This document shows positions 1 to 12,129 of a DNA stretch of 64,000 nt, one piece after another. A program made the position numbers and the translations under genes. This DNA comes from an uncultured Thermoleophilia bacterium (lineage in GTDB: Bacteria > Actinomycetota > Thermoleophilia > UBA2241): positions 1,704 to 65,703 of the forward strand of contig CAVOMB010000060.1 of NCBI GenBank assembly GCA_963696935.1, read 5' to 3'. The notes beneath the pieces were generated by a model, which saw only the letters and a program-made list of their open reading frames with translations, searched no databases and was not told where the DNA came from. How positions within the stretch are numbered: position 1 is the stretch's first letter; each line of letters starts with the position of its first letter.

Positions 1-416
1 GTGTGCTGCAGCAGTTCCATGTGCTCCTGCTCGACGCTGACGATGAACTTGCTCGGTTTGACCGAGTAGTCGATGTGGCCGACCTCCATCGAGTCGAACG
101 CGAAGGCGCGCTCGAAGAGCCGGACGGCCGTCTCGCGGCCGATCGGCGCGGCGATGCCGCTGGAGAGCCGCGAGCTGATGAGCGTGTTGGTGCCGCCGTC
201 CTTGGTCATCACGGCCTCGTGACCGCGCTCGACTCCCCAGACGCGGCTGGGGCAGCAGAACATGTCGACCAGGTAGTCGACCTCGTTCTCCTCGAGCACG
301 GGGATCTTGGCCTTGACGGCCGCGGCCTCGGACCCCTCGTCGATGTCCCGGCGGATCTCTCCCCGGGTCATCTGGACGGTGCTGCCGTCACCCATGCGCG
401 TGACGATGGAACTCAC
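1..416 (-). CDS. mtbB: Dimethylamine:corrinoid methyltransferase MtbB-like, 5' part (runs off the left edge)
   Basis: Not in the ORF track. Manual translation from GTG at 416 (GGAGG RBS upstream): VSSIVTRMGDGSTVQMTRGEIRRDIDEGSEAAA...LFERAFAFDSMEVGHIDYSVKPSK. The RMGDG and ERAF..D.ME.GHIDYS.KP blocks match the MtbB N-terminus as I recall it. Confidence 0.85.
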   Translation of the reverse strand, partial: MSSIVTRMGDGSTVQMTRGEIRRDIDEGSEAAAVKAKIPVLEENEVDYLVDMFCCPSRVWGVERGHEAVMTKDGGTNTLISSRLSSGIAAPIGRETAVRLFERAFAFDSMEVGHIDYSVKPSKFIVSVEQEHMELLQH

Positions 417-457
417 CGCTCACCCCCTCCACGGTCGCACTGATGTGGGAAAAGTAC

Positions 458-500
458 CCACCTAGGTGGAGAAGAATAGGTGCATATGGGGGGTTGTCAA
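458..500 (-). promoter_or_regulatory. sigma70-type promoter and palindromic operator for the mtbB-like gene
   Basis: TTGACA-N16-TATTCT on the minus strand (500-495, 478-473); perfect palindrome CCACCTAGGTGG at 458-469 just downstream. Confidence 0.55.
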
Positions 501-541
501 GTGCAGGAGGGGTTTTTCGCCCCCCCCGGTGGGGGCGGCCG

Positions 542-1228
542 TCAGGAAGCGGGCGCCGCCGCCTCCTGCGCCCCGGCGCTCGCGGCGATCTCCAGCAACT
601 GGACCATGGAGTTGCGCAGGAGGAACTCGAGGGCGGCCAGCGGCCGGCTCAGCTCGAAGCCGTCGGGGTTGAGCCCCGCCTGCACGGAGAGGCCGTCCGG
701 GATGGCGGCGATGAGCTCGGCGAGCCCCATGAGCATCTCGTTGGCCTCGGCCCCCGGCGCCGCGAGACCCAGCCACGTGAGGTTCTGGCGATACCACCAC
801 TCGTACAGGGCGAACAGGCGCCCGCGCAGCTCCGGGTCACGGAACGCATGAGGCAGGATGTCGAAGAAGCCGCGGAACGAGTCGGCGTCCACGATCATCC
901 GCCGGATGCCCTCCATGGCCGCGTGCAGCCGCTCCTCCTGCGGCACGCTCTCGACGTCGGCCGCCAGGCGCAGGCACTCGTCGTGGATGAGGGCGTCGGC
1001 GACCGCGATGATGAGCCCGGCCTTGTTGCCGAAGTTGTAGCGGATGGACGCCTTGTTGACGCCCGCCGCGGCGGCGACGTTCTCCAGCGTGACCGCCTCG
1101 AAGCCCTTGTCGGCCAAGAGTTGCTGCGCCGCCTTGAGGATCTTCTGCGCCGTCGCCGGCAGACTCTCCACGGGGTCCTCGAACGGGAACTGCAGGCGGC
1201 CCTTGGGCTTTGGCTGGGACGTGGTCAC
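542..1228 (-). CDS. TetR/AcrR family transcriptional regulator
   Basis: N-terminal HTH ILKAAQQLLADKGFEAVTLENVAAAAGVNKASIRYNFGNK. Confidence 0.9.
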   Translation of the reverse strand: MTTSQPKPKGRLQFPFEDPVESLPATAQKILKAAQQLLADKGFEAVTLENVAAAAGVNKASIRYNFGNKAGLIIAVADALIHDECLRLAADVESVPQEERLHAAMEGIRRMIVDADSFRGFFDILPHAFRDPELRGRLFALYEWWYRQNLTWLGLAAPGAEANEMLMGLAELIAAIPDGLSVQAGLNPDGFELSRPLAALEFLLRNSMVQLLEIAASAGAQEAAAPAS

Positions 1229-1345
1229 GGTCTCCCCTCACGGTCGGTACTACACGCTACACCGGACACTCCGGTCATCCACCCGGGTGGCGGGAACGCA
1301 CGTAGAGTACCCCCGCAGGACGCTACAGCCAACACCCGCGTGCTC

Positions 1346-2386
<1,041 letters not shown>

Positions 2387-2509
2387 GGGGCCTCCTTGGC
2401 CGGGCGTGCGGGTGCCGTGCGAGCGTATCGCAGGGAGACGCCTCCGCGGAACCGGCGGTGATGGGAGGCGACAGGCAGACCCGGCGGGCGGCCCGGACGC
2501 GCCGGCGGC

Positions 2510-3250
2510 CTACGCCCGCTGCGGCCGCGGCAGCCCGAAGAGCCGGTGCGCCGGCACCGGCGCGGGCGGCCGGCGGAGCCAGCGCCGGCGGGGCGGCCGC
2601 TGCGCGGGCAGCAGCCCGTCGGCGGCCAGGCGGCCGGCGCCAAGCAGCCTCGCGAGCGCGCTCCACAGCACGATGAGCGCGAGGCCGCCGAAGAGCAGCG
2701 CCTTGCGCAGGGCCGGCGCCGGCGTCCAGTACATGGCCACCTGGTCGGCCCACTCCTGACGCAGGTTGACGACCTGCGGCAGGTGGAAGAACCACTCGCC
2801 GTTCTGGCGTCCCGCAATCTGCACCCCGGGGTTCTCGAGCGCGTTGGCCGTCTTGCCCGGGTAGTCCACCCAGATGTGGTCGAGCGACATGTACAGGTGG
2901 TTGGGAATGCCCTTGGCGGTGAGGATGCTTGCGAGCACCACGGCGCGGCTCTCACAGTCGCCGGCGCCCGTCTTGAGCGCCTCGGCGGTGGTCGGAAAGT
3001 ACCAGGGCACGCCCGCCGACCGCCAGTCGTAGGCGTAGGGCACCTGCTTGTCGAGCACGTAGGCCTCGATGGCCTTGGGGTCGTTGGGGAGCCTCGCCGC
3101 GATGGCCGCGACCGCCTGCGGCTGGATCCGCGGCCGCATGGTGTTGCGCACGCTGCGCACGAGCGCCGTGGGGTCCGGATAGAGCATCACGAGGACCCAG
3201 GCGGCGAAGAGGAAGATGAGGGCACGGCGGGGCAACATCACTGACTGCAT
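2510..3250 (-). CDS. Membrane-anchored transglutaminase-like protein
   Basis: GDCESRA catalytic Cys motif, DHIWVDY, N- and C-terminal hydrophobic segments. Confidence 0.65.
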
Positions 3251-3289
3251 GATACCCGGGGCGGCGCGCGCGGCAGCGCGGTTCGCCGG

Positions 3290-4610
3290 CCCGGATGAAG
3301 CATGTGTGAAGAAGTGAGAAGGAAGCTCGGCGTCAGGCGTGGGACGAGCCGTCAGAGAGACGGGTGTTGCACTACGGACTTGAACTCAGGCAATCGCGTC
3401 AACGCCCGAGGACGATGTCGATGCCGAGCTTCCATCCGCGCTCCACCCTGGGGGCGGGCGCAGCGATGGCCTGTGCGGCAGCGGGGAGGCCGAGTCTTGT
3501 TGACGAGGGTCGCTGGGCGCCCTCAGCGCATCTGAGGCGGCTCTCCTTCGCTAGGCCGCTGCCCTGTACACCTCCCCACGGTCGAGGAGGGTCCAGGACA
3601 GTCCGAGCGGCTCGCGCGCGGCCGCCACCAGGGCGACCTTCTTGCCGCGGCGGTGGGCACGTGCGAGGTAGCGGTCGCGTAGCGGCCCAAGCAGGCGCAC
3701 GGCGACGTGCGCCGCCTCGACCAGGGCGCGGCGTGCGTGCGGCGAGCCGGCGCGCGTGATGCGCCCGTAGTGGGCGACGTCGGCCGAGGCGCGCACGCAG
3801 GGCACGAGCCCGAAGTAGGCGGAGACCTGGGCCGCGCGCGCGAAGCGGTGCGGGTCGCCGAGCTCGGCGACGAGCGTCGCGGAGGTGAGGAAGCCGACCC
3901 CGGGGATGGTCTGCAGCAGAGCCACCTCAGGGGCGCCGCGGAGGCGCTCGCGCAGCAGCGCCGTGAGCTCCGCCACGTGGGCGTCGGCCTCGTCGATGGT
4001 GGCGAACAGCAGCTCGACGAGCGTGCACGTGTGGGCGTCGAGCTCGAAGCTCGGCGAGCCAGACGCGGCCGCCTCTGCCGAAGAGGTCCGTGCCCGCGAA
4101 GCGCAGGCAGTGGCGCGTGAGCAGGTTGCTGATGCGGTTCTTGGCGGTGGTGCGCTGGGCGACGAAGCGCCAGCGGAGGCGCACGAGGCTCGCGCAGCTC
4201 GCGCACCTCGGCCGGCGGCGCCCAGGCCTCGGGCACGAGGTCGCAGCGCAGCAGATGGGCGAGGATGCGCGCGTCGATCTTGTCGGTCTTCACGCGCGCC
4301 GAGGCGATCGCCTTCACGTGCGAGGGGTGCGCCAGCTTGACGGAGGCGGCGCAGCTGCGCAAGGCGTCGTAGGTGCGGTGCCAGCTGCCGGTCGCCTCGA
4401 GGACCACGGCGCAGTCGCCCGGGACGATGCTCGCGACCTCTTCGGTCGGCAGGCTGCCCTCGCGGAGGATCTCTCCGACCGGGTCCATCAGGCAGTACTG
4501 GGTGCGCACCTTGTGCACGTCGAGTCCCAGGTAGTACGTTGGCATCGGCGCTCTCCTTCCCTGTCGGCGGTGGCTACGACGACAGTACGGGGAGCGTCCT
4601 GTTCATGCCA
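3290..4610 (-). mobile_element. IS110/IS1111-family insertion sequence (ends approximate)
   Basis: Frameshifted transposase flanked by a ~60 bp 5' and a ~260 bp 3' non-coding region; no terminal IRs or target duplication seen. Confidence 0.8.
3551..4545 (-). pseudogene. IS110 transposase, split over several frames
   Basis: RuvC-like YLGLDVHK / VLEATG / KTDKID in ORF 3523-4545; C-terminal LQTIPGVG..SAYFGLVP..S..GRITRAG in ORF 3551-3976; middle part in ORF 3927-4184. Confidence 0.9.
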
Positions 4611-4621
4611 TCTTGTTAGTC
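4601..4621 (-). other. Probable left half of an attC site (R'' plus L''-like box), interrupted at the IS110 end
   Basis: GACTAAC overlaps the parE TAA stop and is near-complementary to the cassette's 5' core GTTGGTC; followed by GCATGAAC. No matching right half found. Confidence 0.45.
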
Positions 4622-4924
4622 ACGCCCAACGTCGTCCGGCTCTGCGGGGAGCTGAGCCGAGTGCCAGGCCGCGACCACCCAGACCGCGTCCTCCTTGACG
4701 CGGTAGAAGAAGCGGTAGGGCGGAACGATGACCTCGCGGAACGCAAGGTCAGGGAACTCGGGTAGCACGCGCCCCGACTCCGGGTACTCGCCGAGGCGCG
4801 AGAGCGAGGCGGCAGCTCGGTCGCGCAAGTTGCGCGCTGCGACTGGGTCGTCAGCCGCAACGTAGGCGAGCGCCGCGAGGAACTGTTCGCGGGCGGCGGG
4901 CGTGAAGAGGACCCTGCGGCTCAA
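4616..4924 (-). CDS. RelE/ParE family toxin
   Basis: TTG start overlapping the antitoxin stop; VLFTPAAREQ..YVAADDPVAA..YPESGR..FREVIVPPYRFFYRV. Confidence 0.85.
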   Translation of the reverse strand: MSRRVLFTPAAREQFLAALAYVAADDPVAARNLRDRAAASLSRLGEYPESGRVLPEFPDLAFREVIVPPYRFFYRVKEDAVWVVAAWHSAQLPAEPDDVGRD

Positions 4925-5197
4925 GGCCTGCCGAGCAGGTGGTCGGCCTCGGCGAGTACCTCCGCGAGCGCGTGGCCGGAACCGGCCTCGATCTCGGCCT
5001 CGCCGCGGGCGAGCAGGCGCAGGATCTCGAAGCTCGTGCTGCGTGCGCTCGTAGGCCCGTGCGCTGACCACGACTGCCGCTGCGCGGCCGCGCTGGGTGA
5101 TGAACACCGGCTGCTGCGTGTCGGCGGCGCGCTTGATCACGCCAGAGGCGTCCTGACGCAGGTCGGTGATGGGGACGATGTCGGGTACTGATGCCAT
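4921..5197 (-). pseudogene. Phd/YefM antitoxin with a +1 frameshift near 5030 (possibly sequencing error)
   Basis: IVPITDLRQDASGVIKRAADTQQPVFITQRGRAAAVVVS; removing one T restores ..HELEILRLLARGEAEIEAG..ADHLLGRP*. Confidence 0.85.
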
Positions 5198-5212
5198 TGA
5201 AGCTACCTCCTA

Positions 5213-5232
5213 TGATACCGACAACGGTATCA
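5213..5232. promoter_or_regulatory. Palindromic operator upstream of phd-parE
   Basis: TGATACCG-acaa-CGGTATCA, perfect 8-bp inverted repeat just upstream of the RBS; typical of toxin-antitoxin autoregulation. Confidence 0.6.
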
Positions 5233-5266
5233 CTAACGTACTCTCGCGACCAGAGGAGAGGGCTGT

Positions 5267-5353
5267 GACCAACGCCCGGCGCATAAGCTGTGCGCCGCGC
5301 CGTCCCGGTCAATCTGGGCGCTCCGGCGCATCAGGTTGATGCACTTGTTGGGT
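5267..5353 (-). other. Integron attC site (hicBA cassette), 87 bp
   Basis: R'' ACCCAAC, L'' CATCAACCTGATGCGCC, L' GGCGCACAGCTTATG, R' GTTGGTC; arms pair with unpaired C and A (G and T on the bottom strand). Confidence 0.8.
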
Positions 5354-5360
5354 GGCGCGA

Positions 5361-5585
5361 TCACCGCGCCTCAAGAAGTTCGTCGATGGTCAGGTGGATG
5401 TCTGCGGCGATCTTGCGCAGCAGCGCGGGCGAGATGTCGCGACCGGCGTGGAAGGGCACCGTCGTCGTGCGGCCGTCGGGATGGCGGAACTGCTTGTGCG
5501 AGCCGCGCTGGCGGACTTCCGCGAAGCCGAGGGCCTCGAGTAGGGTGACGACCTGCCGCGGCTTGAGGACCGGCAGGCTGCCCAT
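5361..5585 (-). CDS. hicA: HicA family toxin
   Basis: LEALGFAEVRQRGSHKQFRHPDGRTTTVPFH (GSH motif). Confidence 0.92.
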   Translation of the reverse strand: MGSLPVLKPRQVVTLLEALGFAEVRQRGSHKQFRHPDGRTTTVPFHAGRDISPALLRKIAADIHLTIDELLEAR

Positions 5586-5591
5586 GGAAGG

Positions 5592-5807
5592 TCAGGCGAC
5601 CTGGATGGTGCGCACGTCGATGAACTCGGACTCGAGCGCCGGCTCACCGTCCTCGAGCAGCATCTCGATGACCTCGCGCAGGTTCTGCTGCAGTTCGTCG
5701 ATGTCGGCGCCCTGGCTGTGAGCGCCGGGCCAGCCCGGCACGTAGCCGATCAGCAGGTTGGTGTCGGGGTCACGCTCGACGACGAAGTTGTACGACCGCA
5801 TGGTCAC
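5592..5807 (-). CDS. hicB: HicB family antitoxin (short form)
   Basis: YNFVVERDPD..GYVPGWPGAHSQGADIDELQQNLREVIEMLLE. Confidence 0.9.
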   Translation of the reverse strand: MTMRSYNFVVERDPDTNLLIGYVPGWPGAHSQGADIDELQQNLREVIEMLLEDGEPALESEFIDVRTIQVA

Positions 5808-5875
5808 GCCTCCTTGCGACCCTTCTAAGATAGCCCACGCCCAGGCGAGGACGCCAGACGTACCGGCGAACGTCC

Positions 5876-5959
5876 GCCCAACGTGTTAGGCATGAGCGGC
5901 GGCCCATGCCCTGCTGGTTGATACTACCTGACGCCGTCCGCTCGATGCCTTTGTTGGAC
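5876..5959 (-). other. Integron attC site (GNAT cassette), 84 bp
   Basis: R'' GTCCAAC, L'' CATCGAGCGGACGGC, L' GCCGCCGCTCATG, R' GTTGGGC; canonical extrahelical G and T on the bottom strand; lies 2 bp after the GNAT stop. Confidence 0.88.
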
Positions 5960-5961
5960 GG

Positions 5962-6438
5962 CTAATGGCGAGTGTCGCAGTGTCGAATGAGCGTGACCAT
6001 CGGAATCCCGTCAGGAGTCGTCCAGCGGCTCTGCTGGGAGAAGCCGTGCGCAGCATACAGCTCTAGCGCCGGGATATTCTGGACCCCCGTCGAGACCGTG
6101 AGGTCTACGCAGGGATGAGTCTCGACGATGTCGCGCAGAAGCGCCGTCGCCAGTCCCTCGCGAAAGTGGGATGGGCTCACAACCAACGCGCTGATCTGTT
6201 GAAGCCCCGGCTCAACTTGCTCGAGTTCAGCAACGGCGGTGAGACCACCGTCCAGCCAGATGCCAAGGAAGCAGGCCTGAGCGCCCGCGATTTGCGCGGT
6301 TGTGCGACGCAGAGGCATGAAGTCCACAACGCCGAGAATGGCAGCCTCGACACGATAGGCAGCGAACATGACGGCCCGAATCGCGTCTGCCACATCCAAG
6401 GACGCATGGTCGAGCTGGACAATCTGGCTGGTGGTCAA
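5962..6438 (-). CDS. GNAT family N-acetyltransferase (gene cassette)
   Basis: ISALVVSPSHFREGLATALL acetyl-CoA motif A, NIPALELYAAHGF; lower GC and atypical codons. Confidence 0.88.
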   Translation of the reverse strand: MTTSQIVQLDHASLDVADAIRAVMFAAYRVEAAILGVVDFMPLRRTTAQIAGAQACFLGIWLDGGLTAVAELEQVEPGLQQISALVVSPSHFREGLATALLRDIVETHPCVDLTVSTGVQNIPALELYAAHGFSQQSRWTTPDGIPMVTLIRHCDTRH

Positions 6439-6449
6439 AGGTGGAGTCC

Positions 6450-6510
6450 GTCCAACTACTATTCTGCAGTCTGCGTAAGCGTGTTACGCAGCTGCCGACT
6501 TCTGCATAAC
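6450..6510 (-). other. attI-like recombination site heading the cassette array
   Basis: Core GTTGGAC (6456-6450) is the exact complement of the cassette's R''; upstream inverted repeat CTGCGTAA/TTACGCAG and direct repeat TGCAGAA; no attC-type hairpin. Confidence 0.45.
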
Positions 6511-6731
6511 AGCGTACCACGAGCCTACGAGAAGGTAGAGAGCAACCTGCATAGGACGTGTCGGGAGCCGTGGGAGTCCATCGAAGCGAAACACCGTAGA
6601 CGACCGACGAACGCAGGCGCGCTCCCACTGCACGGGACTGTGCGACGGCTCACCCAGGCGGAATGCCGCTTCGCGGGAACCTTGATGTGCCTACGGTCGG
6701 GTGAGCCTTCGGCGCACCCGACGGTGACCCG

Positions 6732-6767
6732 CCTCCGGCGAGCCGCAGAGCGGCTCGCCTCCGGAGG
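6732..6767 (-). terminator. GC-rich hairpin directly after the guaA stop
   Basis: CCTCCGGcGAGCCGC...CGGCTCgcctCCGGAGG inverted repeat; no U-tract. Confidence 0.4.
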
Positions 6768-8324
6768 TTACTCCCACTCGATGGTGCTGGGCGGCTTGCT
6801 CGAGACGTCGTAGACGACGCGGTTGACCTCTGGCACCTCGTTGATGATGCGCGAGGCCAGGGTCTCCAGCAGGTCGTAGGGGAGCCGCGCCCAGTCGGCC
6901 GTCATGGCGTCGTCGCTGGTGACGGCCCTGATGGCGATGGCGTAGCCGTAGGTGCGCTCGTCGCCCTGCACGCCGACGCTGCGGATGACGGGCAGGATCG
7001 CGAAGCACTGCCAGAGCTCGCGGTAGAGACCCGCCTTGCGGATCTCCTCCTGGACGATCGCGTCCGCGCGTTGCAGCACGTCCACGCGCTCGCGGGTGAT
7101 CTCGCCGATGATGCGGATGGCGAGGCCGGGACCCGGGAACGGCTGCCGCCAGACGATGTGCTCCGGCAGCCCGAGCTCCTCGCCCACGGCGCGGACCTCG
7201 TCCTTGAACAGCCAGCGCAGCGGCTCGACGAGCTCGAAGTCCATCTTCTCGGGAAGGCCGCCGACGTTGTGGTGGCTCTTGATCTTGGCGGCCTGCCGCG
7301 TGCCGCTCTCGATGACGTCGCTGTACAGGGTGCCCTGCACGAGGTACTTGGCGTCGGTGAGCTTGCGCGCCTCCTCCTCGAAGCAGCGGATGAACTCCTC
7401 GCCGATGATCTTGCGCTTGCGCTCCGGCTCGGTGACGCCGGCCAGCTTGTCCAGGAACCGGTCGCTGGCGTCGACCGACACCAGCGGGATGCCGAAGGTG
7501 CCGGAGAAGGTCTCGACGACGCGGTCGGCCTCGCGCATGCGCATCATGCCCTGGTCGACGAACACGCAGGTGAGCCGGTCGCCGATGGCCCGGTGCATGA
7601 GCAGCGCGGCCACGGACGAGTCGACGCCGCCGGAGAGGCCGAGGATCGCCTTGGACTCTCCGACCTGCTCGCGGATCTTGCGGATGGACTCCTCGACGAC
7701 CGCCTCGGGCGTGAAGGTGGGCGCGCAGCCGCAGGCCTTGTAGAGGAAGCTGCGCAGGACGTCCATACCCTTGGGCGTATGCACGACCTCGGGGTGGAAC
7801 TGCACGGCGTAGAAGCCGCGCTCCCGGTCCTCCATGGCGGCCACGGGAGCGCCGGGGGTGGACGCGAGCACCTCAAAGCCGGGCGGCGCCGCGGTGATGC
7901 TGTCGCGGTGGCTCATCCAGCACTGCTCTTCGGGGCGCATGCTCTCGAGCACGAGGCCCTTCTTGTGCACGCTCAGCGTGGTCTTGCCGAACTCGCTGAG
8001 GTCGGTGCGCGAGACGGTGCCGCCGAGCTCGAGGGCGACTCCCTGGGCGCCGTAGCAGATGCCCAGCACGGGGATGCCGAGCTCGAACAGCTCGGGATTG
8101 ACCCTGGGGGCGTCCTCGACGTACACGCTGGCAGGGCCGCCGGACAGGATGATGCCCTTGGGGTCATAGCTCTTGATGCGCTCGACGGACGCGTCGTGCG
8201 GGATCAGCTCGGAGTAGACCCTGCACTCGCGCACGCGACGCGCGATGAGCTGTCCGTACTGGGCCCCGTAGTCGAGGACCAGGACGGTGTCGAACCCCTT
8301 GACCTGCGGCGCACCCTGAACCAC
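6768..8324 (-). CDS. guaA: GMP synthase (glutamine-hydrolysing)
   Basis: [55 protein letters not shown]. Confidence 0.98.
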
Positions 8325-8333
8325 TGCGCCTCC

Positions 8334-9491
8334 TTATCCCATGCCTACGTCTTGTTCCTTCTGCAGCTTCTTGCCCTCGGTCATGAGCGCCGGCGCGACC
8401 ATGACCTCGGCCTTCTGGAACGAGGTCAGCGTCTCGTAGCCGCACGTCGCCATGCTGGTGCGCAGGGCGCCGAACAGGTTGCGCGTGCCGTCGTTCTCGT
8501 GCGCCGGGCCGAGCAGGATCTCCTCGAGCGTGCCCTTGGTGCCGGCCTTGACGCGCGTGCCGCGCGGCAGCTCGGGATGGAACGTCGCCATGCCCCAGTG
8601 GTAGCCACGGCCGGGCGCCTCGCTGGCGGTCGCCAGCGGCGAGCCGATCATGACCGCGTCGGCGCCGAGGGCGATGGCCTTGCTCACGTCGCCGCCGGTG
8701 CGCATGCCGCCGTCGGCGATGACGTTGCAGTACTGACCGGTCTCGAGCACGTGCTGGACGCGCGCCGCGGCGGCGTCGGCGATGGCCGTGGCCTGCGGGA
8801 CGCCGATGCCGAGCACGCCGCGCGTGGTGCAGGCGTGGCCCGGGCCGACGCCGACGAGCACGCCTACGGCGCCGGTGCGCATGAGGTGCAGCGTGGTGGC
8901 GTAGCTGGCCACGCCGCCCACGATCACCGGCACCTCGCACTCGCTGATGAACTTCCTGAGGTCGAGCGGCTCGACCCTGGTGCTGACGTGCTCGGCCGAG
9001 ACCACGGTGCCCTGGATGATGAGCACGTCGAGGCCGGCCTCGAGGGCGATCTTGTAATAGTCCTCCACCCGCTGCGGCGTGAGCGACGCGGCGGCGAGCA
9101 CGCCGCCGTCCTTGATCTCCTTGATGCGCTTGGCGACCAGCTCGGCCTTGATGGGCTCCTTGTAGATCTCCTGCATGGTGCGGGTCGCCGTGTCGTTGGG
9201 CAGCGACGCGATGCGGTCGAGCTGCTCGGCGGCGTTCTCGTAGCGGGTCTGGACGCCCTCGAGGTTGAGCACGGCGAGCCCGCCGAGCTTGCCCATGGTG
9301 ACGGCGAAGCCGGGGTCGACCACGCCGTCCATCGCCGAGGCGAGGCAGGGAATCGGCAGGGTGTGCTCGGCGAGCTTCCACGTTATGTCGACGTCTTCGG
9401 CGTCGCGGGTACGCCGGCTGGGCACGATGGCGATGTCGTCGAAGCCGTAGGCCCTGCGGCCCTTCTTGCCGCGGCCGATCTCTACTTCCAT
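8334..9491 (-). CDS. guaB: IMP dehydrogenase family protein (GuaB3-like, lacks CBS domains)
   Basis: MEVEIGRGKKGRRAYGFDDIAIVPSRRT, GVGPGHACTT, IADGG; ATG at 9491 with AGGAGG RBS. Confidence 0.9.
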   Translation of the reverse strand: MEVEIGRGKKGRRAYGFDDIAIVPSRRTRDAEDVDITWKLAEHTLPIPCLASAMDGVVDPGFAVTMGKLGGLAVLNLEGVQTRYENAAEQLDRIASLPNDTATRTMQEIYKEPIKAELVAKRIKEIKDGGVLAAASLTPQRVEDYYKIALEAGLDVLIIQGTVVSAEHVSTRVEPLDLRKFISECEVPVIVGGVASYATTLHLMRTGAVGVLVGVGPGHACTTRGVLGIGVPQATAIADAAAARVQHVLETGQYCNVIADGGMRTGGDVSKAIALGADAVMIGSPLATASEAPGRGYHWGMATFHPELPRGTRVKAGTKGTLEEILLGPAHENDGTRNLFGALRTSMATCGYETLTSFQKAEVMVAPALMTEGKKLQKEQDVGMG

Positions 9492-9635
9492 GCCGTCCTC
9501 CTGACAGGGGCGCGATGCGAGATAAACAAAAGACCCGGGCACGGACGTCCCTGGGTCTCTAGGCTCTGGGTGATGTCTTTTGCGCTTTGCGGTGGCAACG
9601 TGCTCCGACTCTACCAGCGCCCCAGCCGAGGGTCA
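9492..9635 (-). promoter_or_regulatory. guaB promoter and ~110-nt leader with intrinsic terminator (putative attenuator or riboswitch)
   Basis: TTGACC-N16-TAGAGT with extended TG (9635-9608); hairpin AGACCCAGGG..CCCGGGTCT (9558-9531) followed by TTTGTTT before the RBS. Confidence 0.6.
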
Positions 9636-9726
9636 ACGCGCGCGGGGTGGGCGCGCGGGGTGGCACAACGCGCGCGAAGAGCGGCGCCCGCGAGGCGCCG
9701 CGGACGCGACGGCGGCCGCGACCGCG

Positions 9727-10230
9727 TCAGGCCGCCTGCTCCCGGTCGGCCGGAAGGCGCAGGCGGATGCCGGCGGTCTCCTCGTAGAGGCGCACCGGCG
9801 TCATCTCCCCCGCGTCGTCGCCGAAGGCGGCGCGGGTGCGAGCGAACAACTGCTCGACGACTGCGCTGAGCTCGGCCGGCACGCCTGCGGCCCGGGCGAG
9901 GTCCATCGCCAGGCGCAGATCCTTGGCGGCGAGCGCCATCGTGAAGCCTTCCTCGTAGTCGCCGCGCGTAAGCAACGGGAGCATGTCGTGCGCGAGGAGA
10001 CGGCTGGTGGTCGGTCCCTCCGCCAGCGCGGTGTGCAGCACGCCGAGGTCCACTCCGGCGCGCGCGCCGATGGTGAGCACCTCGGCGATCGCGACCAGTT
10101 GGTCGAACCACAGCAGGTTGCGCATGAGTTTGACGACGTAGCCGGCCCCGTGGCCGCCGACGTGGAAGATCCGCTCGGGGTCGCCGAGGTGCTCGAGGAT
10201 GGGGCGGGCGACCGCGACGTCGGCGGCGTG
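9727..10230 (-). pseudogene. C-terminal half of an NAD(P)-dependent 3-hydroxyisobutyrate/6-phosphogluconate-dehydrogenase-like oxidoreductase
   Basis: ARPILEHLG..IFHVGGHGAGYVVKLMRN..GFTMALAAKDLRLA; the N-terminal Rossmann fold is missing. Confidence 0.8.
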
Positions 10231-10640
10231 GTCAGTGTGGCCTCACGGTCGTTCTCGTACACCGCCTGCTCGTCGCTGGCAGCCGGGTTCACCCAGACGG
10301 CGGCGATCAGCGCCAGTTCGGCGACCCTGCCGCCGTCGACGACCCCTTCCGCAACCGCATCGGCGACGCCGGCTGCGACGCCGGCCTGAGCGGCGCCCCA
10401 CGTGAGGTCCGCGTGGCGCCCGGGCTCGATCGCCGCCTTGTCGACGAACAGCGTCGGCGGCTGGACCGCGAGCCCCGGCTCCAGCACGGCGACAAAGGGC
10501 ACGTGGCCGGCGCGAGGCGTCGCCAGCGCCGTCGCCCACGCCGTCCCGGCCGGGCCGTCCCTCGGCCCGAGCACGACGTTGACGTGAGCAGCGTCGACCC
10601 CGTCACCGATGAAGGACTCGCCGGTCAGCATCTCGCTCAT
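10231..10640 (-). pseudogene. fae: Formaldehyde-activating enzyme (Fae) family, C-terminally truncated
   Basis: GESFIGDGVDAAHVNVVLG..PPTLFVDK..TWGAAQAGVAAGVADAV..LIAAVWVNP..VYEN; homology ends at ENDREAT. Confidence 0.8.
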
Positions 10641-11094
10641 ACACACCCTCCGCGCACCGGTGCCGGCTCTCGCCGGGGGCCGCGTCGCAGGCCTGCCTCT
10701 CCGTTGCCCGTCGGAGGGCCCGAAACGAATCACCGCTGACGATGCGACCGGCGCGAGCGGAGCGCCGGGAGCGCGACGGCAGGAAGCCCGTACGTGGCCG
10801 GGGCGAGCGAAGGTCCTAGGCAGACGACCGTCGCTCGCCCCTTGGAGGCCAGGCAAGGCAAATGAGCATCTGGGACGTGACCGGGCGCGCCTCCTTGTGG
10901 GTGATTGGGGAGGTCCCGCCGGACCAATCGGGAGCTCGACGCGCTCCCCGAGGAATCTTCGCGCGACCCGGCGGAATCTCTGCCGTCCCTAGAAGCATCG
11001 TCGTACGCCTTCCCCACCGCGATAGGGATACGCCCCCGAATCGCGAGGGACAGGCGGGCGCGGCGCCTCTGCCGGCACGCCGCGCCCGCCGCTG

Positions 11095-12129
11095 CTACCT
11101 GCCTTCCGGCCGACGCCGGCGCAGGAGGGCGAAACCCATGACGAGCACGATGGCCACGAGGCCGCCCATGAGCCCGTACATCAGCCAGGACGTCTTGGAC
11201 CCTCCGCCACTCTCGGCCGGCCCGACCAAACGCTCTCCAAGCTTCTTCGCTTCGGCACTGCCAACGGTGACGTTGCCCGACCAGGTCGCCACCTTGGTGT
11301 CGTCCGCGTAGCGGATCTCGACCGTCGCGGGATACGTGCCCTCCGAGGGATTCCTCTTCCACTTGACCGGATAGTCGGTCTTCGCCGTCGGTATCATGGT
11401 GTCGAGAGAGAACTTGTCGCTGAACGCGGCGTCCGACAGCGAGAGTGAGCCGTTGCCCGTCGTCGCCGCCGTGCCGGTATTCGCGATGGCAATGCTCAAG
11501 TACATGCCGTCGGGACGCGGCGTGGCCATGACCCCCGAGATGACGATCTCAGGAACGGCCGGACCCGGCGTGACGACCTCAACGGCAAGCACGCGGCGCT
11601 CGACGTAGAGGATGCGAGTCCCAGCTTGGTTGGCGGCGGCGGCCGTCGTGAACTTGGTCGTCGCGGAAGGTTCCCACACTGACAGGCCCCCGACATGCTC
11701 GCCCGAGGAGGCGTCAGATGGCACGCTGACGACGAAGGGCACCTTCGCCGATGCTCCCGGAGCGAGCTTCACCGCAGAGCGGGACACCGCGATCCACGTG
11801 CCGACCGCAGCAGAAGTGGCGCCGACATCCGCATAGTCCACGCCGCCATACACCGACGCCCCGCCGTCATTCGAGACGATCCGTAGTGATTGAGCCTTCT
11901 TCGACGTGTTGGTGATGAGAAGGACCCGGGACACCGAAGCGCCGGGCGCCGCGTTGAACTTGAAGTAGCCGAACTCGGCACCGAGAGAGCCGGGAAGCGG
12001 CTGCGCCGTGAAGCCGATGCCTGCCGCCCGGGCGGCGACCGGAGCCAGGAACACGCCCGCGAACGCGGCGAGCACGAGCACTGCCCGGAGAAGTCGCCGG
12101 CCTGACAGGAGTCTGAATCTACGAGTCAT
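11095..12129 (-). CDS. DUF916/DUF3324 WxL-interacting cell-surface protein (CscA-like)
   Basis: Signal peptide, GYFKFNAAPGAS, VKLAPGAS.KVPFVVSVP..GEHVGG, C-terminal TM followed by RRRR. Confidence 0.75.
   Translation of the reverse strand: MTRRFRLLSGRRLLRAVLVLAAFAGVFLAPVAARAAGIGFTAQPLPGSLGAEFGYFKFNAAPGASVSRVLLITNTSKKAQSLRIVSNDGGASVYGGVDYADVGATSAAVGTWIAVSRSAVKLAPGASAKVPFVVSVPSDASSGEHVGGLSVWEPSATTKFTTAAAANQAGTRILYVERRVLAVEVVTPGPAVPEIVISGVMATPRPDGMYLSIAIANTGTAATTGNGSLSLSDAAFSDKFSLDTMIPTAKTDYPVKWKRNPSEGTYPATVEIRYADDTKVATWSGNVTVGSAEAKKLGERLVGPAESGGGSKTSWLMYGLMGGLVAIVLVMGFALLRRRRPEGR

What the first reader, a model, noticed from the sequence alone, without database searches (positions are those of the whole stretch)
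3290..4621. IS110 element sits directly against the R'' box of the last cassette (IS1111-attC-like targeting)
Seen: the parE stop lies inside GACTAAC, and the IS left non-coding end follows within a few bases. Established: a group of IS1111 elements inserts specifically into attC sites in Proteobacteria. Inference: this may be an actinobacterial analogue that disrupted the third attC. The missing half of that attC was not found at the other IS end, so a later deletion would be needed.
Basis: partly seen in the sequence, partly recalled or inferred. Interest (0 to 1): 0.62.

Follow-up and report, generated by a model that had tools for sequence, protein, structure and literature searches.

The report
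Broken attC-targeting insertion sequence
A dead copy of an RNA-guided jumping gene sits exactly inside the recombination site of an integron gene cassette in a soil actinobacterium. Its relatives always land at that same spot, so this lineage targets integrons separately from the Pseudomonas/Klebsiella elements already known to do so.

Summary
The parE stop lies in GACTAAC (4621-4615), and the IS starts three bases later (AAG, then ATGG at 4611).

Eleven same-genus genomes carry the same phd-parE cassette without the IS. There GACTAAC-AAG runs straight into a complete attC.

About 22 left and 19 right junctions of related IS copies, from MAGs and metagenomes, all lie between R''+AAG and the L'' arm. 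All are in one orientation.

The element is IS1111-type: a 12-bp subterminal inverted repeat and a long non-coding region (NCR) 3' of the transposase gene. That region folds into two stem/internal-loop modules. Their strands match the target left, target right, IS left end and IS right end. The guide for the L'' arm changes together with the L'' sequence.

The transposase is 25-27% identical to ISKpn4 and ISPa25 and falls in another clade, nearest ISAtu7. It points the same way as the cassettes, unlike the proteobacterial group.

The window copy is a fossil. It has two frameshifts and is cut at 3427, where it is fused to the last 28 nt of a MazF-like cassette gene. An IS30-type end fragment follows (3388-3293). 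So the inferred deletion is real, and the IS does not reach 3290.

Verdict: a new variant of a known kind.

The parts
4615..4621 (-). R'' box (GACTAAC) of the phd-parE cassette's attC; holds the parE stop TAA (4618-4616)
   Evidence: Sequence. In 11 empty alleles the same heptamer is followed by AAG and a full attC. The cassette's 5' boundary in relatives, GTTAGTC, is its exact complement.
4612..4614 (-). AAG: the attC spacer, and the probable core of the recombination (AG is shared by all junctions)
   Evidence: AAG, or rarely CAG/AGG, precedes the IS in about 22 copies, and AAG follows the right end in about 19. Uninterrupted attCs read AAC-AAG-YGCATC.
3427..4611 (-). 3'-truncated IS1111-type insertion sequence (1185 bp kept of about 1290-1307 bp)
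   Evidence: 85-90% nucleotide identity to L015 and L021 from 4619 down to about 3417. Full copies continue ~110 nt further, to ...GTCCTTTTCATGGAAG.
4596..4607 (-). Left subterminal inverted repeat CATGAACAGGAC (consensus CATGAAAAGGAC); the right partner is deleted here
   Evidence: Inverted-repeat pairs CATGAAAAGGAC / GTCCTTTTCATG in L015, L016 and L021.
3551..4545 (-). DEDD (IS110-family) transposase pseudogene; single-base insertions near 4195 and 4048
   Evidence: Pfam PF01548 and PF02371 match on separate frames. Three-frame reading. Alignment with intact L015, L016 and L138 shows the two insertions.
3427..3550 (-). Non-coding region 3' of the transposase gene, coding a seekRNA/bridge-RNA-like molecule. 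It holds guide A GATGCGCT (3532-3525), guide B GTCAACAAGA (3504-3495), the donor guide GCCATCGCT (3470-3462) and the donor guide GATGGAAGC (3436-3428).
   Evidence: Alignment of the non-coding regions. Consensus fold with compensatory pairs. Guide-target covariation and permutation test.
3399..3426 (-). Last 28 nt (..GIDIVLGR*) of a MazF/PemK-like toxin cassette gene, fused to the cut IS
   Evidence: 97-100% identical 32-35-mers in many same-genus genomes, where they end a PemK_toxin gene followed by an attC.
3293..3388 (+). End fragment of an IS30-family element. The terminal ~45 nt are recognisable (3345-3388); the rest is unverified. It is cut at the junction with the chromosomal backbone.
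   Evidence: Motif TGAGTTCAAGTNNGTAGTGCAACACC (written on the minus strand) matches the right end of an IS30 element in L119. That element's transposase hits NF033563 at 150.8 and 99.2 bits in two frames.
4616..5197 (-). phd-parE toxin-antitoxin cassette genes (cassette runs 5272 to 4612); phd carries a +1 insertion near 5031
   Evidence: Pfam PhdYeFM_antitox and ParE_toxin. Alignment with L125, L126 and L129.
5267..5353 (-). attC2, complete, after hicA
   Evidence: Strict attC pattern and fold.
5876..5959 (-). attC1, complete, after the GNAT gene
3293..6656 (-). Island (cassette array plus IS remnants) between guaA and a transglutaminase-like gene; absent from the closest relatives
   Evidence: In G003, G022 and G001 the two flanking genes are only 25-190 bp apart.

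Best explanation
Window 3427-4611 (minus strand) is the fossil of an IS1111-type, RNA-guided insertion sequence. Its lineage lives in Thermoleophilia and other Actinomycetota and inserts specifically into integron attC sites.

The insertion point is fixed: after R''-AAG and before the L'' arm. The orientation is also fixed, with the transposase gene co-directional with the cassette genes.

Target choice is most likely made by an RNA coded in the non-coding region (NCR) 3' of the transposase gene. This RNA has two stem/internal-loop modules.
- Module 1, 5' strand: pairs with the target top strand right of the cut (AG plus L'').
- Module 1, 3' strand (GTTAACAAGA): has the sequence of the target left side (R'' TAAC plus AAG) and so would pair with the bottom strand.
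- Module 2: carries the matching pair for the IS left and right ends.
- All four segments contain the AG/CT core.

Proposed history in this genome:
1. The element entered the attC of the phd-parE cassette. That splits R'' from the rest of the site and should inactivate it for IntI.
2. A deletion then ran from inside the IS non-coding region to the 3' end of a downstream mazF-like cassette gene. It removed the IS right end, the rest of the attC and at least most of one cassette.
3. The transposase gene also carries two frameshifts.

Shown here: the anatomy, the empty alleles, the constant insertion point, guide-target covariation, the phylogenetic position and the deletion junction.
Inferred: that the non-coding region is transcribed, that the RNA does the targeting, and the effect on IntI.
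For: Empty alleles. Eleven same-genus genomes have the same cassette (86-92% identity) ending GACTAACAAG, followed by a complete attC. An example is L126: CGCATCGAGCAG...CTGCTCATGCGCGGTGC GTTGGGC.

Constant target.
- About 22 left junctions read ..YCTAAC-AAG|ATGG.
- About 19 right junctions read CATGGAAG|L''-arm.
- The rebuilt empty site of L021 folds as a canonical attC; in L015 and L016 the motifs are present, but the R''/R' pairing did not form in the computed fold.
- Uninterrupted sister attCs lie in the same loci. One has the identical target sequence (L016 1708-1798).

IS1111-type anatomy. A 12-bp subterminal repeat, about 65 nt of non-coding sequence 5' and about 240 nt 3' of the transposase gene. 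This matches the criteria in PMC11187229 and PMC11208160.

RNA structure. The consensus fold has 96.8% of cells paired, against 33-48% when partners are slid. Five pairs show compensatory changes.

Guide-target covariation:
- GATGCGCT with CGCATC
- GATCCGCT with CGGATC (L136, L148)
- GTTGCACGCGCT with TGCGTGCAAC (L016)
- GCAACGGCT with CCGTTGC (L017)
Only 1-2 of 20,000 shuffles of IS-target pairings reach the observed complementarity.

The window's own guide (GATGCGCT) matches the L'' arm of empty alleles L125, L126 and L127.

Separate lineage.
- BLASTP gives ISAtu7 36%, ISKpn4 24.7%, ISPa25 27.5%.
- The ML tree puts the core IS1111 clade, including ISKpn4 and ISPa25, behind a 100/99 branch that excludes the window clade.
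- The nearest outgroups (41-46% identity) have non-attC flanks.

Deletion. IS similarity ends at GGATGGAAGCT. The sequence then continues as the mazF-like tail, which is 97-100% identical to cassettes in other genomes.
Against: - Expression of the RNA and the reality of the frameshifts are therefore untested.
- The Rfam 15 scan found no RNA family in the non-coding region.
- Some copies sit at targets with mismatches to guide A (L140, L145, L163), so pairing is not strict, or other determinants contribute.
- Many copies share one guide and one target type, so the independent covariation events number about four, not seventeen.
- Only one copy exists in this genome, and it is dead, so nothing here shows current activity.
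- The right-hand AAG could be carried by the IS or be a target duplication. No copy with a variant left trinucleotide also kept its right end.
Confidence: 0.88

Rival explanations
1. Chance neighbourhood. An ordinary IS110-family element happened to land next to the parE stop, and GACTAAC only looks like an R'' box.
For: Only one IS copy exists in this genome. No second half of an attC is found at the other IS end.
Against: Eleven empty alleles show a full attC at exactly this point. About 22 independent junctions are at the same position. The strict attC pattern occurs only twice in 3 Mb, both times in this array.
Confidence: 0.01
2. It is a true member, by descent or transfer, of the proteobacterial IS1111-attC group (ISPst6, ISPa21, ISKpn4, ISPa25).
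For: Same kind of target and a similar position, near the 5' end of the attC. IS1111-type anatomy.
Against: 24.7% and 27.5% identity to ISKpn4 and ISPa25, no better than to IS110-type references. The ISKpn4/ISPa25 clade groups with IS1111A and IS4321 behind a 100/99 branch that excludes the window clade. The orientation relative to the cassettes is the opposite of what PMC3001079 reports.
Confidence: 0.04
3. The transposase recognises the folded attC hairpin as a structure, as IntI does. The sequence matches in the non-coding region are then a by-product of the IS ends resembling the target.
For: attC sites are structured. Some insertions tolerate guide mismatches. Guide B and the donor guides hardly vary, so they carry little covariation signal.
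Against: Guide A changes together with very different L'' arms (L016, L017, L136, L148). Related IS1111 elements were shown to need their seekRNA (PMC11187229).
Confidence: 0.06
4. The IS is complete and ends near 3290, as first drawn. The region 3290-3550 is all its non-coding region.
For: No gene is called there, and the island edge lies at 3292/3293.
Against: Full copies end in GTCCTTTTCATGGAAG, which is missing here. Positions 3426-3399 are a mazF-like gene tail and 3388-3345 an IS30-type end.
Confidence: 0.01

Closest known systems
IS1111-attC group (ISPst6, ISPa21, ISKpn4; more distantly ISPa25). Sources: Tetu & Holmes 2008; Post & Hall 2009; seekRNA shown for ISKpn4 and ISPst6 in Siddiquee et al. 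2024, PMC11187229.
   Same: DEDD transposase, subterminal inverted repeats and a long 3' non-coding region with guide RNA. Site- and orientation-specific insertion near the 5' end of integron attC sites.
   Different: Only 25-27% transposase identity and a separate clade. The hosts are Actinomycetota with 70% G+C chromosomal arrays. The transposase gene is co-directional with the cassettes, whereas the proteobacterial group is reported as antisense (PMC3001079). The guides are tuned to a different attC type (AAC-AAG-YGCATC).
ISAtu7 (ISfinder; in the sequence file of PMC11187229 it follows the IS1111A entry, which I took to start the IS1111 block)
   Same: Best reference match (36% identity, 158 bits). 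It lies in the same large clade in the tree.
   Different: ISAtu7 and most of that clade have about 400-aa transposases with a C-terminal extension. No attC-like flanks were seen in the sampled clade members.
IS621 / IS110 bridge-RNA recombinases (Durrant et al. 2024, PMC11208160)
   Same: A two-module guide RNA with target and donor internal loops, each holding two guide strands around a short core.
   Different: The guide RNA is in the right end, not the left. The subterminal repeats are long. The core is AG/AAG rather than CT.
Group IIC-attC introns (PMC3001079)
   Same: Another class of mobile element that homes to attC sites.
   Different: A retroelement with an unrelated mechanism and no DEDD transposase.

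Membership tests
IS110 family (DEDD, RNA-guided transposases) | DEDD N-terminal domain plus the IS116/IS110/IS902 C-terminal domain | tested here: met
   PF01548 and PF02371 match the window's frames. The intact relative L015 hits NF033542 at 246 bits, against a cut-off of 140.
IS1111 group | Subterminal inverted repeats of about 11-13 bp with short terminal extensions | tested here: met
   CATGAAAAGGAC / GTCCTTTTCATG in relatives. Extensions are 4-7 nt on the left and 1-4 nt on the right, depending on where AAG is assigned. In the window only the left repeat survives.
IS1111 group | Long non-coding region downstream of the transposase gene, coding the guide RNA | tested here: met
   About 240 nt 3' against about 65 nt 5'. 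Two-module fold with guides.
IS1111 group | Transposase clusters with IS1111 | tested here: inconclusive
   It lies outside the core IS1111 clade (IS1111A, IS4321, ISKpn4) and inside an ISAtu7-containing clade with 81/95 support. The reference set was limited to 21 ISfinder sequences.
IS1111-attC group | Insertion at one fixed position in attC sites | tested here: met
IS1111-attC group | Monophyly with ISPst6, ISPa21 and ISKpn4 | tested here: not met
   24.7% identity to ISKpn4, and separated from it by starred branches.
IS1111-attC group | Antisense orientation relative to cassette transcription | tested here: not met
   The transposase gene is on the same strand as the cassette genes in the window. 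It has the same polarity as the attC (R'' to R') in all relatives. The criterion comes from PMC3001079.
Integron attC site (for the disrupted third site) | R''/R' and L''/L' pairing with extrahelical bases, at the 3' end of a cassette; R'' complementary to the cassette's 5' boundary | tested here: met
   Only R''+AAG is left in the window. Empty alleles carry the complete attC sequence after the same R''-AAG: L''/L' arms, a spacer and a GTT R' box, read from the sequence and not folded here. GTTAGTC/GACTAAC are exact complements. An integron integrase is present in the genome (TIGR02249, 468 bits).

The most novel reading that the evidence does not exclude
In Thermoleophilia, chromosomal integron attC sites may serve as a shared landing pad for at least two unrelated IS families.
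- One is the RNA-guided IS1111-type lineage at the R''/L'' junction. Its target guide diversifies along with attC L'' subtypes, which would be co-diversification of an RNA-guided parasite with integron recombination sites.
- The other is an IS30-type element at the 5' edge of R''.

On this reading, their decay products freeze the distal ends of arrays into integrase-less clusters.
Probability: 0.35. Interest if true: 0.65.

Novelty: new variant of a known kind. Interest (0 to 1): 0.5.

Why it matters
**A second origin of attC homing.** Homing to attC by IS1111-type elements is not confined to one proteobacterial clade. An unrelated lineage reached the same solution, apparently by programming its guide RNA. 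It also re-programs that guide as attC arms vary. This is a natural series of guide-target pairs for bridge/seek RNA recombinases.

**Integrons in a phylum where they look rare.** Surveys of complete genomes found integron components extremely rare in Actinobacteria (PMC9024848). Here cassette arrays with canonical attC sites are common in one Thermoleophilia genus: parts of the same cassette turn up in 25 of 54 genomes.

**How arrays decay.** The locus shows how IS insertion followed by deletion erodes the end of an array.

The earlier notes of this scan report several other attC-targeting IS110/IS1111 lineages. That lowers the surprise of this single case, but it suggests a general pattern.

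Tried and rejected
- **Naive attC scan.** An R''/R' plus fold scan of the genome gave 997 hits, mostly noise at 70% G+C. I replaced it with a strict motif pattern.
- **Rfam.** The 'evalue' scan of 1-12000 gave only a chance IRES hit.
- **tblastn against plasmids.** This did not let me pick out ISKpn4-type elements. I took the reference transposases from the supplement of PMC11187229 instead.
- **Tetu & Holmes 2008** is not held in the library.
- **GTTGACG (3403-3397) as the R' of the lost attC.** Rejected: it is the end of the mazF-like gene (..CGT TGA CG).
- **GAGTTCAAGTCC as a tRNA 3' fragment or att site.** Rejected: ARAGORN finds nothing, and the motif is an IS30-type end.
- **The motif as a second attC class.** Rejected: it has no hairpin.
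- **The frameshifts as systematic assembly errors at GAGC^TCGAG.** Not supported: GAGCTTCGAG occurs 26 times against 403 for GAGCTCGAG, similar to other insertion variants. The coincidence remains unexplained.
- **The integron on C87.** It has intI but no attC of this type next to it.
- **L018/L019 (Anaerolineae).** The right flank ends in an attC-like ..GAC GTTAGCC, but the left flanks are not R''-like. This stays unresolved.

Full report
**Context.** The window is contig C60:1704-65703 of a 3.04-Mb, 70% G+C MAG with 115 contigs, 83% complete. Its close relatives are Thermoleophilia MAGs.

All genes of interest are on the minus strand. In reading order they are:
- guaA (8324-6768)
- a GNAT gene (6438-5962)
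- hicB-hicA (5807-5361)
- a frameshifted phd fused in one frame to parE (5197-4616)
- IS110-family transposase pieces (4545-3551)
- a transglutaminase-like gene (3250-2510)

**The observation.** The minus strand reads GAC TAA C AAG ATGG CATGAACAGGAC.
- The parE stop (4618-4616) lies inside GACTAAC (4621-4615).
- Three bases later (AAG), similarity to related IS copies begins.

This part of the finding is correct. The right-hand coordinate is not. BLASTN against relatives found with the rebuilt transposase shows 85-90% identity to L015 and L021 from 4619 down to about 3417 only.

**It is an attC, and this is its empty form.**

Two complete sites in the array share one architecture: attC1 at 5959-5876 and attC2 at 5353-5267. 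That architecture is R''(7) + 3-4 nt + GCATC-type L'' ... L' + 7 nt + GTTRRRY.

A strict pattern for it hits only these two places in the whole genome.

The cassette rule holds. Each cassette's 5' boundary is the complement of its own R'':

| 5' boundary | R'' |
|---|---|
| GTTGGAC | GTCCAAC |
| GTTGGGC | ACCCAAC |
| GTTGGTC | GACTAAC |

The same phd-parE cassette occurs in many same-genus genomes.
- In eleven of them it ends ...GGGCGTGACTAACAAG.
- It then continues without interruption into a full attC. In L126 this reads CGCATCGAGCAG...CTGCTCATGCGCGGTGC GTTGGGC.
- In relatives the 5' boundary is GTTAGTC, the exact complement of GACTAAC.

The genome also codes a bona fide integron integrase on another contig (TIGR02249, 468 bits).

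**The IS lineage always sits at this spot.**

In L021, L015, L016 and L017 the element continues about 110 nt beyond the window's break. It ends ...GTCCTTTTCATGGAAG and is followed by an attC L'' arm, L' arm and R' box.

Joining the flanks of L021 rebuilds a site that folds as a canonical attC. In L015 and L016 the motifs are present, but the R''/R' pairing did not form in the computed fold.

Uninterrupted attCs of the same type and polarity lie beside the insertions. One in L016 has exactly the sequence of the occupied target.

A metagenome scan added about 17 more copies. Across all copies:
- About 22 left junctions read YCTAAC-AAG|ATGG. Rare variants are CTGACAAG, CTAACCAG and CTGACAGG.
- About 19 right junctions read CATGGAAG| followed by L'' arms: CGCATCRAGC, CGGATCAAGC, TGCGTGCAAC, CCGTTGCAGAC and others.
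- The trinucleotide before the IS follows the local attC type (CAG in L033 and in its neighbouring attC). It therefore belongs to the target, and AG is common to all.

**How it most likely works.**

The element has the IS1111 hallmarks:
- a 12-bp subterminal inverted repeat
- a short 5' non-coding region (~65 nt) and a long 3' one (~240 nt)

These match the criteria in PMC11187229 and PMC11208160.

Fourteen of these 3' regions fold into two stem/internal-loop modules. In the consensus, 96.8% of cells are paired, against 33-48% when partners are slid, and five pairs show compensatory changes.

Module 1:
- The 5' loop strand is complementary to the target top strand right of the cut. In the window it is GATGCGCT, complementary to AG+CGCATC.
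- The 3' loop strand is GTTAACAAGA, which has the sequence of the target left side (TAAC-AAG).

This order, with the top-strand match placed 5' of the bottom-strand match, is the one reported for IS1111 seekRNAs.

Module 2:
- GCCATC(G)CT or CCCATCTT is the complement of the left end AAGATGGC.
- (G/C)ATGGAAGC has the sequence of the right end CATGGAAG.

Guide A covaries with the target:

| Guide A | Target L'' arm | Copies |
|---|---|---|
| GATCCGCT | CGGATC | L136, L148 |
| GTTGCACGCGCT | TGCGTGCAAC | L016 |
| GCAACGGCT | CCGTTGC | L017 |

Only 1-2 of 20,000 shuffles of IS-target pairs reach the observed complementarity.

A few insertions tolerate mismatches (L140, L145, L163).

Transcription of the RNA and its role are inferred, not shown.

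**Relationship to known attC-targeting IS.**

Reference transposases came from the supplement of PMC11187229.
- By BLASTP the window protein is 36% identical to ISAtu7, 28% to IS1111A, 27.5% to ISPa25 and 24.7% to ISKpn4.
- In an ML tree of 97 sequences, ISKpn4, ISPa25 and ISPa111 group with IS1111A and IS4321 behind a 100/99 branch.
- The window, L015 and L016 form a 100/100 clade on a long branch. That clade sits inside another group, which holds ISAtu7 and all fetched loci.
- Nearest outgroups (41-46% identity) have similar ATGAAAG-type subterminal repeats, but their flanks are not attC-like. L018/L019 remain unclear.

PMC3001079 states that the proteobacterial IS1111-attC subgroup is monophyletic. 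It also states that the subgroup inserts near the 5' end of attC, antisense to the cassettes. Here the position is similar but the orientation is sense. The element therefore works like the IS1111-attC group but is not a member of it.

**The window copy is a fossil.**

The transposase gene has single-base insertions near 4195 and 4048, relative to the intact genes of L015, L016 and L138.

IS sequence ends at ...GGATGGAAGCT (3427). From 3426 the DNA is CGGCATCGACATCGTCCTCGGGCGTTGA. This is 97-100% identical to the last codons (..GIDIVLGR*) of a PemK/MazF-like cassette gene. That gene is present in many same-genus genomes and is followed there by its own attC.

The junction shares a GCT microhomology.

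So a deletion removed three things:
- the IS right end
- the remainder of the parE attC
- most of a mazEF-like cassette

L033 shows a comparable decay: the IS is cut at about transposase residue 281 and fused to the 3' end of an attC.

After the mazF-like stop and CGCGATTGCC comes TGAGTTCAAGTCCGTAGTGCAACACC (3388-3345). This is the terminal repeat of an IS30-family element seen whole in L119 (NF033563, 150.8 and 99.2 bits in two frames). That element in turn is cut at 3293, where the chromosomal backbone resumes.

Synteny confirms that 3293-6656 is an island. In G003, G022 and G001, guaA and the transglutaminase-like gene are 25-190 bp apart.

**Limits.**
- Two of the three insertions (transposase gene ~4048 and phd ~5031) are the same +T in GAGC^TCGAG. 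A k-mer test did not support a systematic artefact.
- The reference tree uses 21 ISfinder sequences only.

**Verdict.** This is a new variant of a known kind: a second, actinobacterial origin of attC homing by an IS1111-type RNA-guided element, caught here as a decayed footprint at the end of a cassette array.

The earlier notes of this scan describe other independent attC-targeting IS110/IS1111 lineages. I did not test them. They lower the surprise of this single case.

Noticed in passing
window 3293-3388 (+); also L117, L118, L119, L120, L123: IS30-family element ends (TGAGTTCAAGTNNGTAGTGCAACACC, written on the minus strand of the window) abut the 5' edge of attC R'' boxes in several same-genus genomes. 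They follow ..GCC in five of the six cases and ..GCGC in L120. L118 holds a solo ~45-nt end inside an attC. L119 holds a full element next to a complete attC. This may be a second IS family that favours attC borders.
   Followed up: partly
window ~5031 and ~4048: The phd antitoxin and the IS transposase gene each carry the same +T insertion in GAGC^TCGAG. The phd frameshift fuses Phd to ParE in one 193-aa frame. This is either a real mutation or an assembly error. The k-mer test gave no sign of a systematic error.
   Followed up: partly
window 3399-3426: Tail of a MazF/PemK-like toxin cassette gene. The full cassette, with its own attC, is widespread in the genus.
   Followed up: yes
window 3293-6656: The whole cassette array plus IS remnants is an island between guaA and a transglutaminase-like gene. 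It is absent in G003, G022 and G001. G009 has a different 1.4-kb insert (a flavin monooxygenase-like gene) at the same place.
   Followed up: partly
window 6446-6531 (-): An ~80-nt element before the first cassette core GTTGGAC (hairpin CTGCGTAA..TTACGCAG, direct repeat TGCAGAA). It recurs at 72-82% identity in 18 other same-genus genomes. In G060 it lies directly upstream of the phd-parE cassette. It may be a second attC or attI-like class.
   Followed up: partly
G000 contig C87 (L012 2909-4003): An integron integrase gene (468 bits) is followed by a small two-gene unit and then housekeeping Fe-S genes. No attC of the window's type lies next to it.
   Followed up: partly
L171 1431-1854: A 423-bp internal-deletion derivative of the IS sits in an attC. 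It keeps both ends and the first 63 codons, so it is probably a non-autonomous copy.
   Followed up: no
L033 ~3790: Another copy of the IS is cut inside the transposase gene and fused to the 3' end of an attC, ahead of a HigB/HigA-like cassette. This is the same kind of decay as in the window.
   Followed up: partly
L143 and L145 (one 118-kb metagenome contig): Two copies with the same guide lie 5.6 kb apart. One is at a matching target (CGCATC) and one at a poorly matching target (CGGAGC). This suggests some off-target tolerance.
   Followed up: no
same-genus genomes: Parts of the phd-parE cassette occur in 25 of 54 genomes of the genus. Integron cassettes thus look common in this Thermoleophilia genus, although surveys of complete genomes call integron components extremely rare in Actinobacteria (PMC9024848).
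   Followed up: partly
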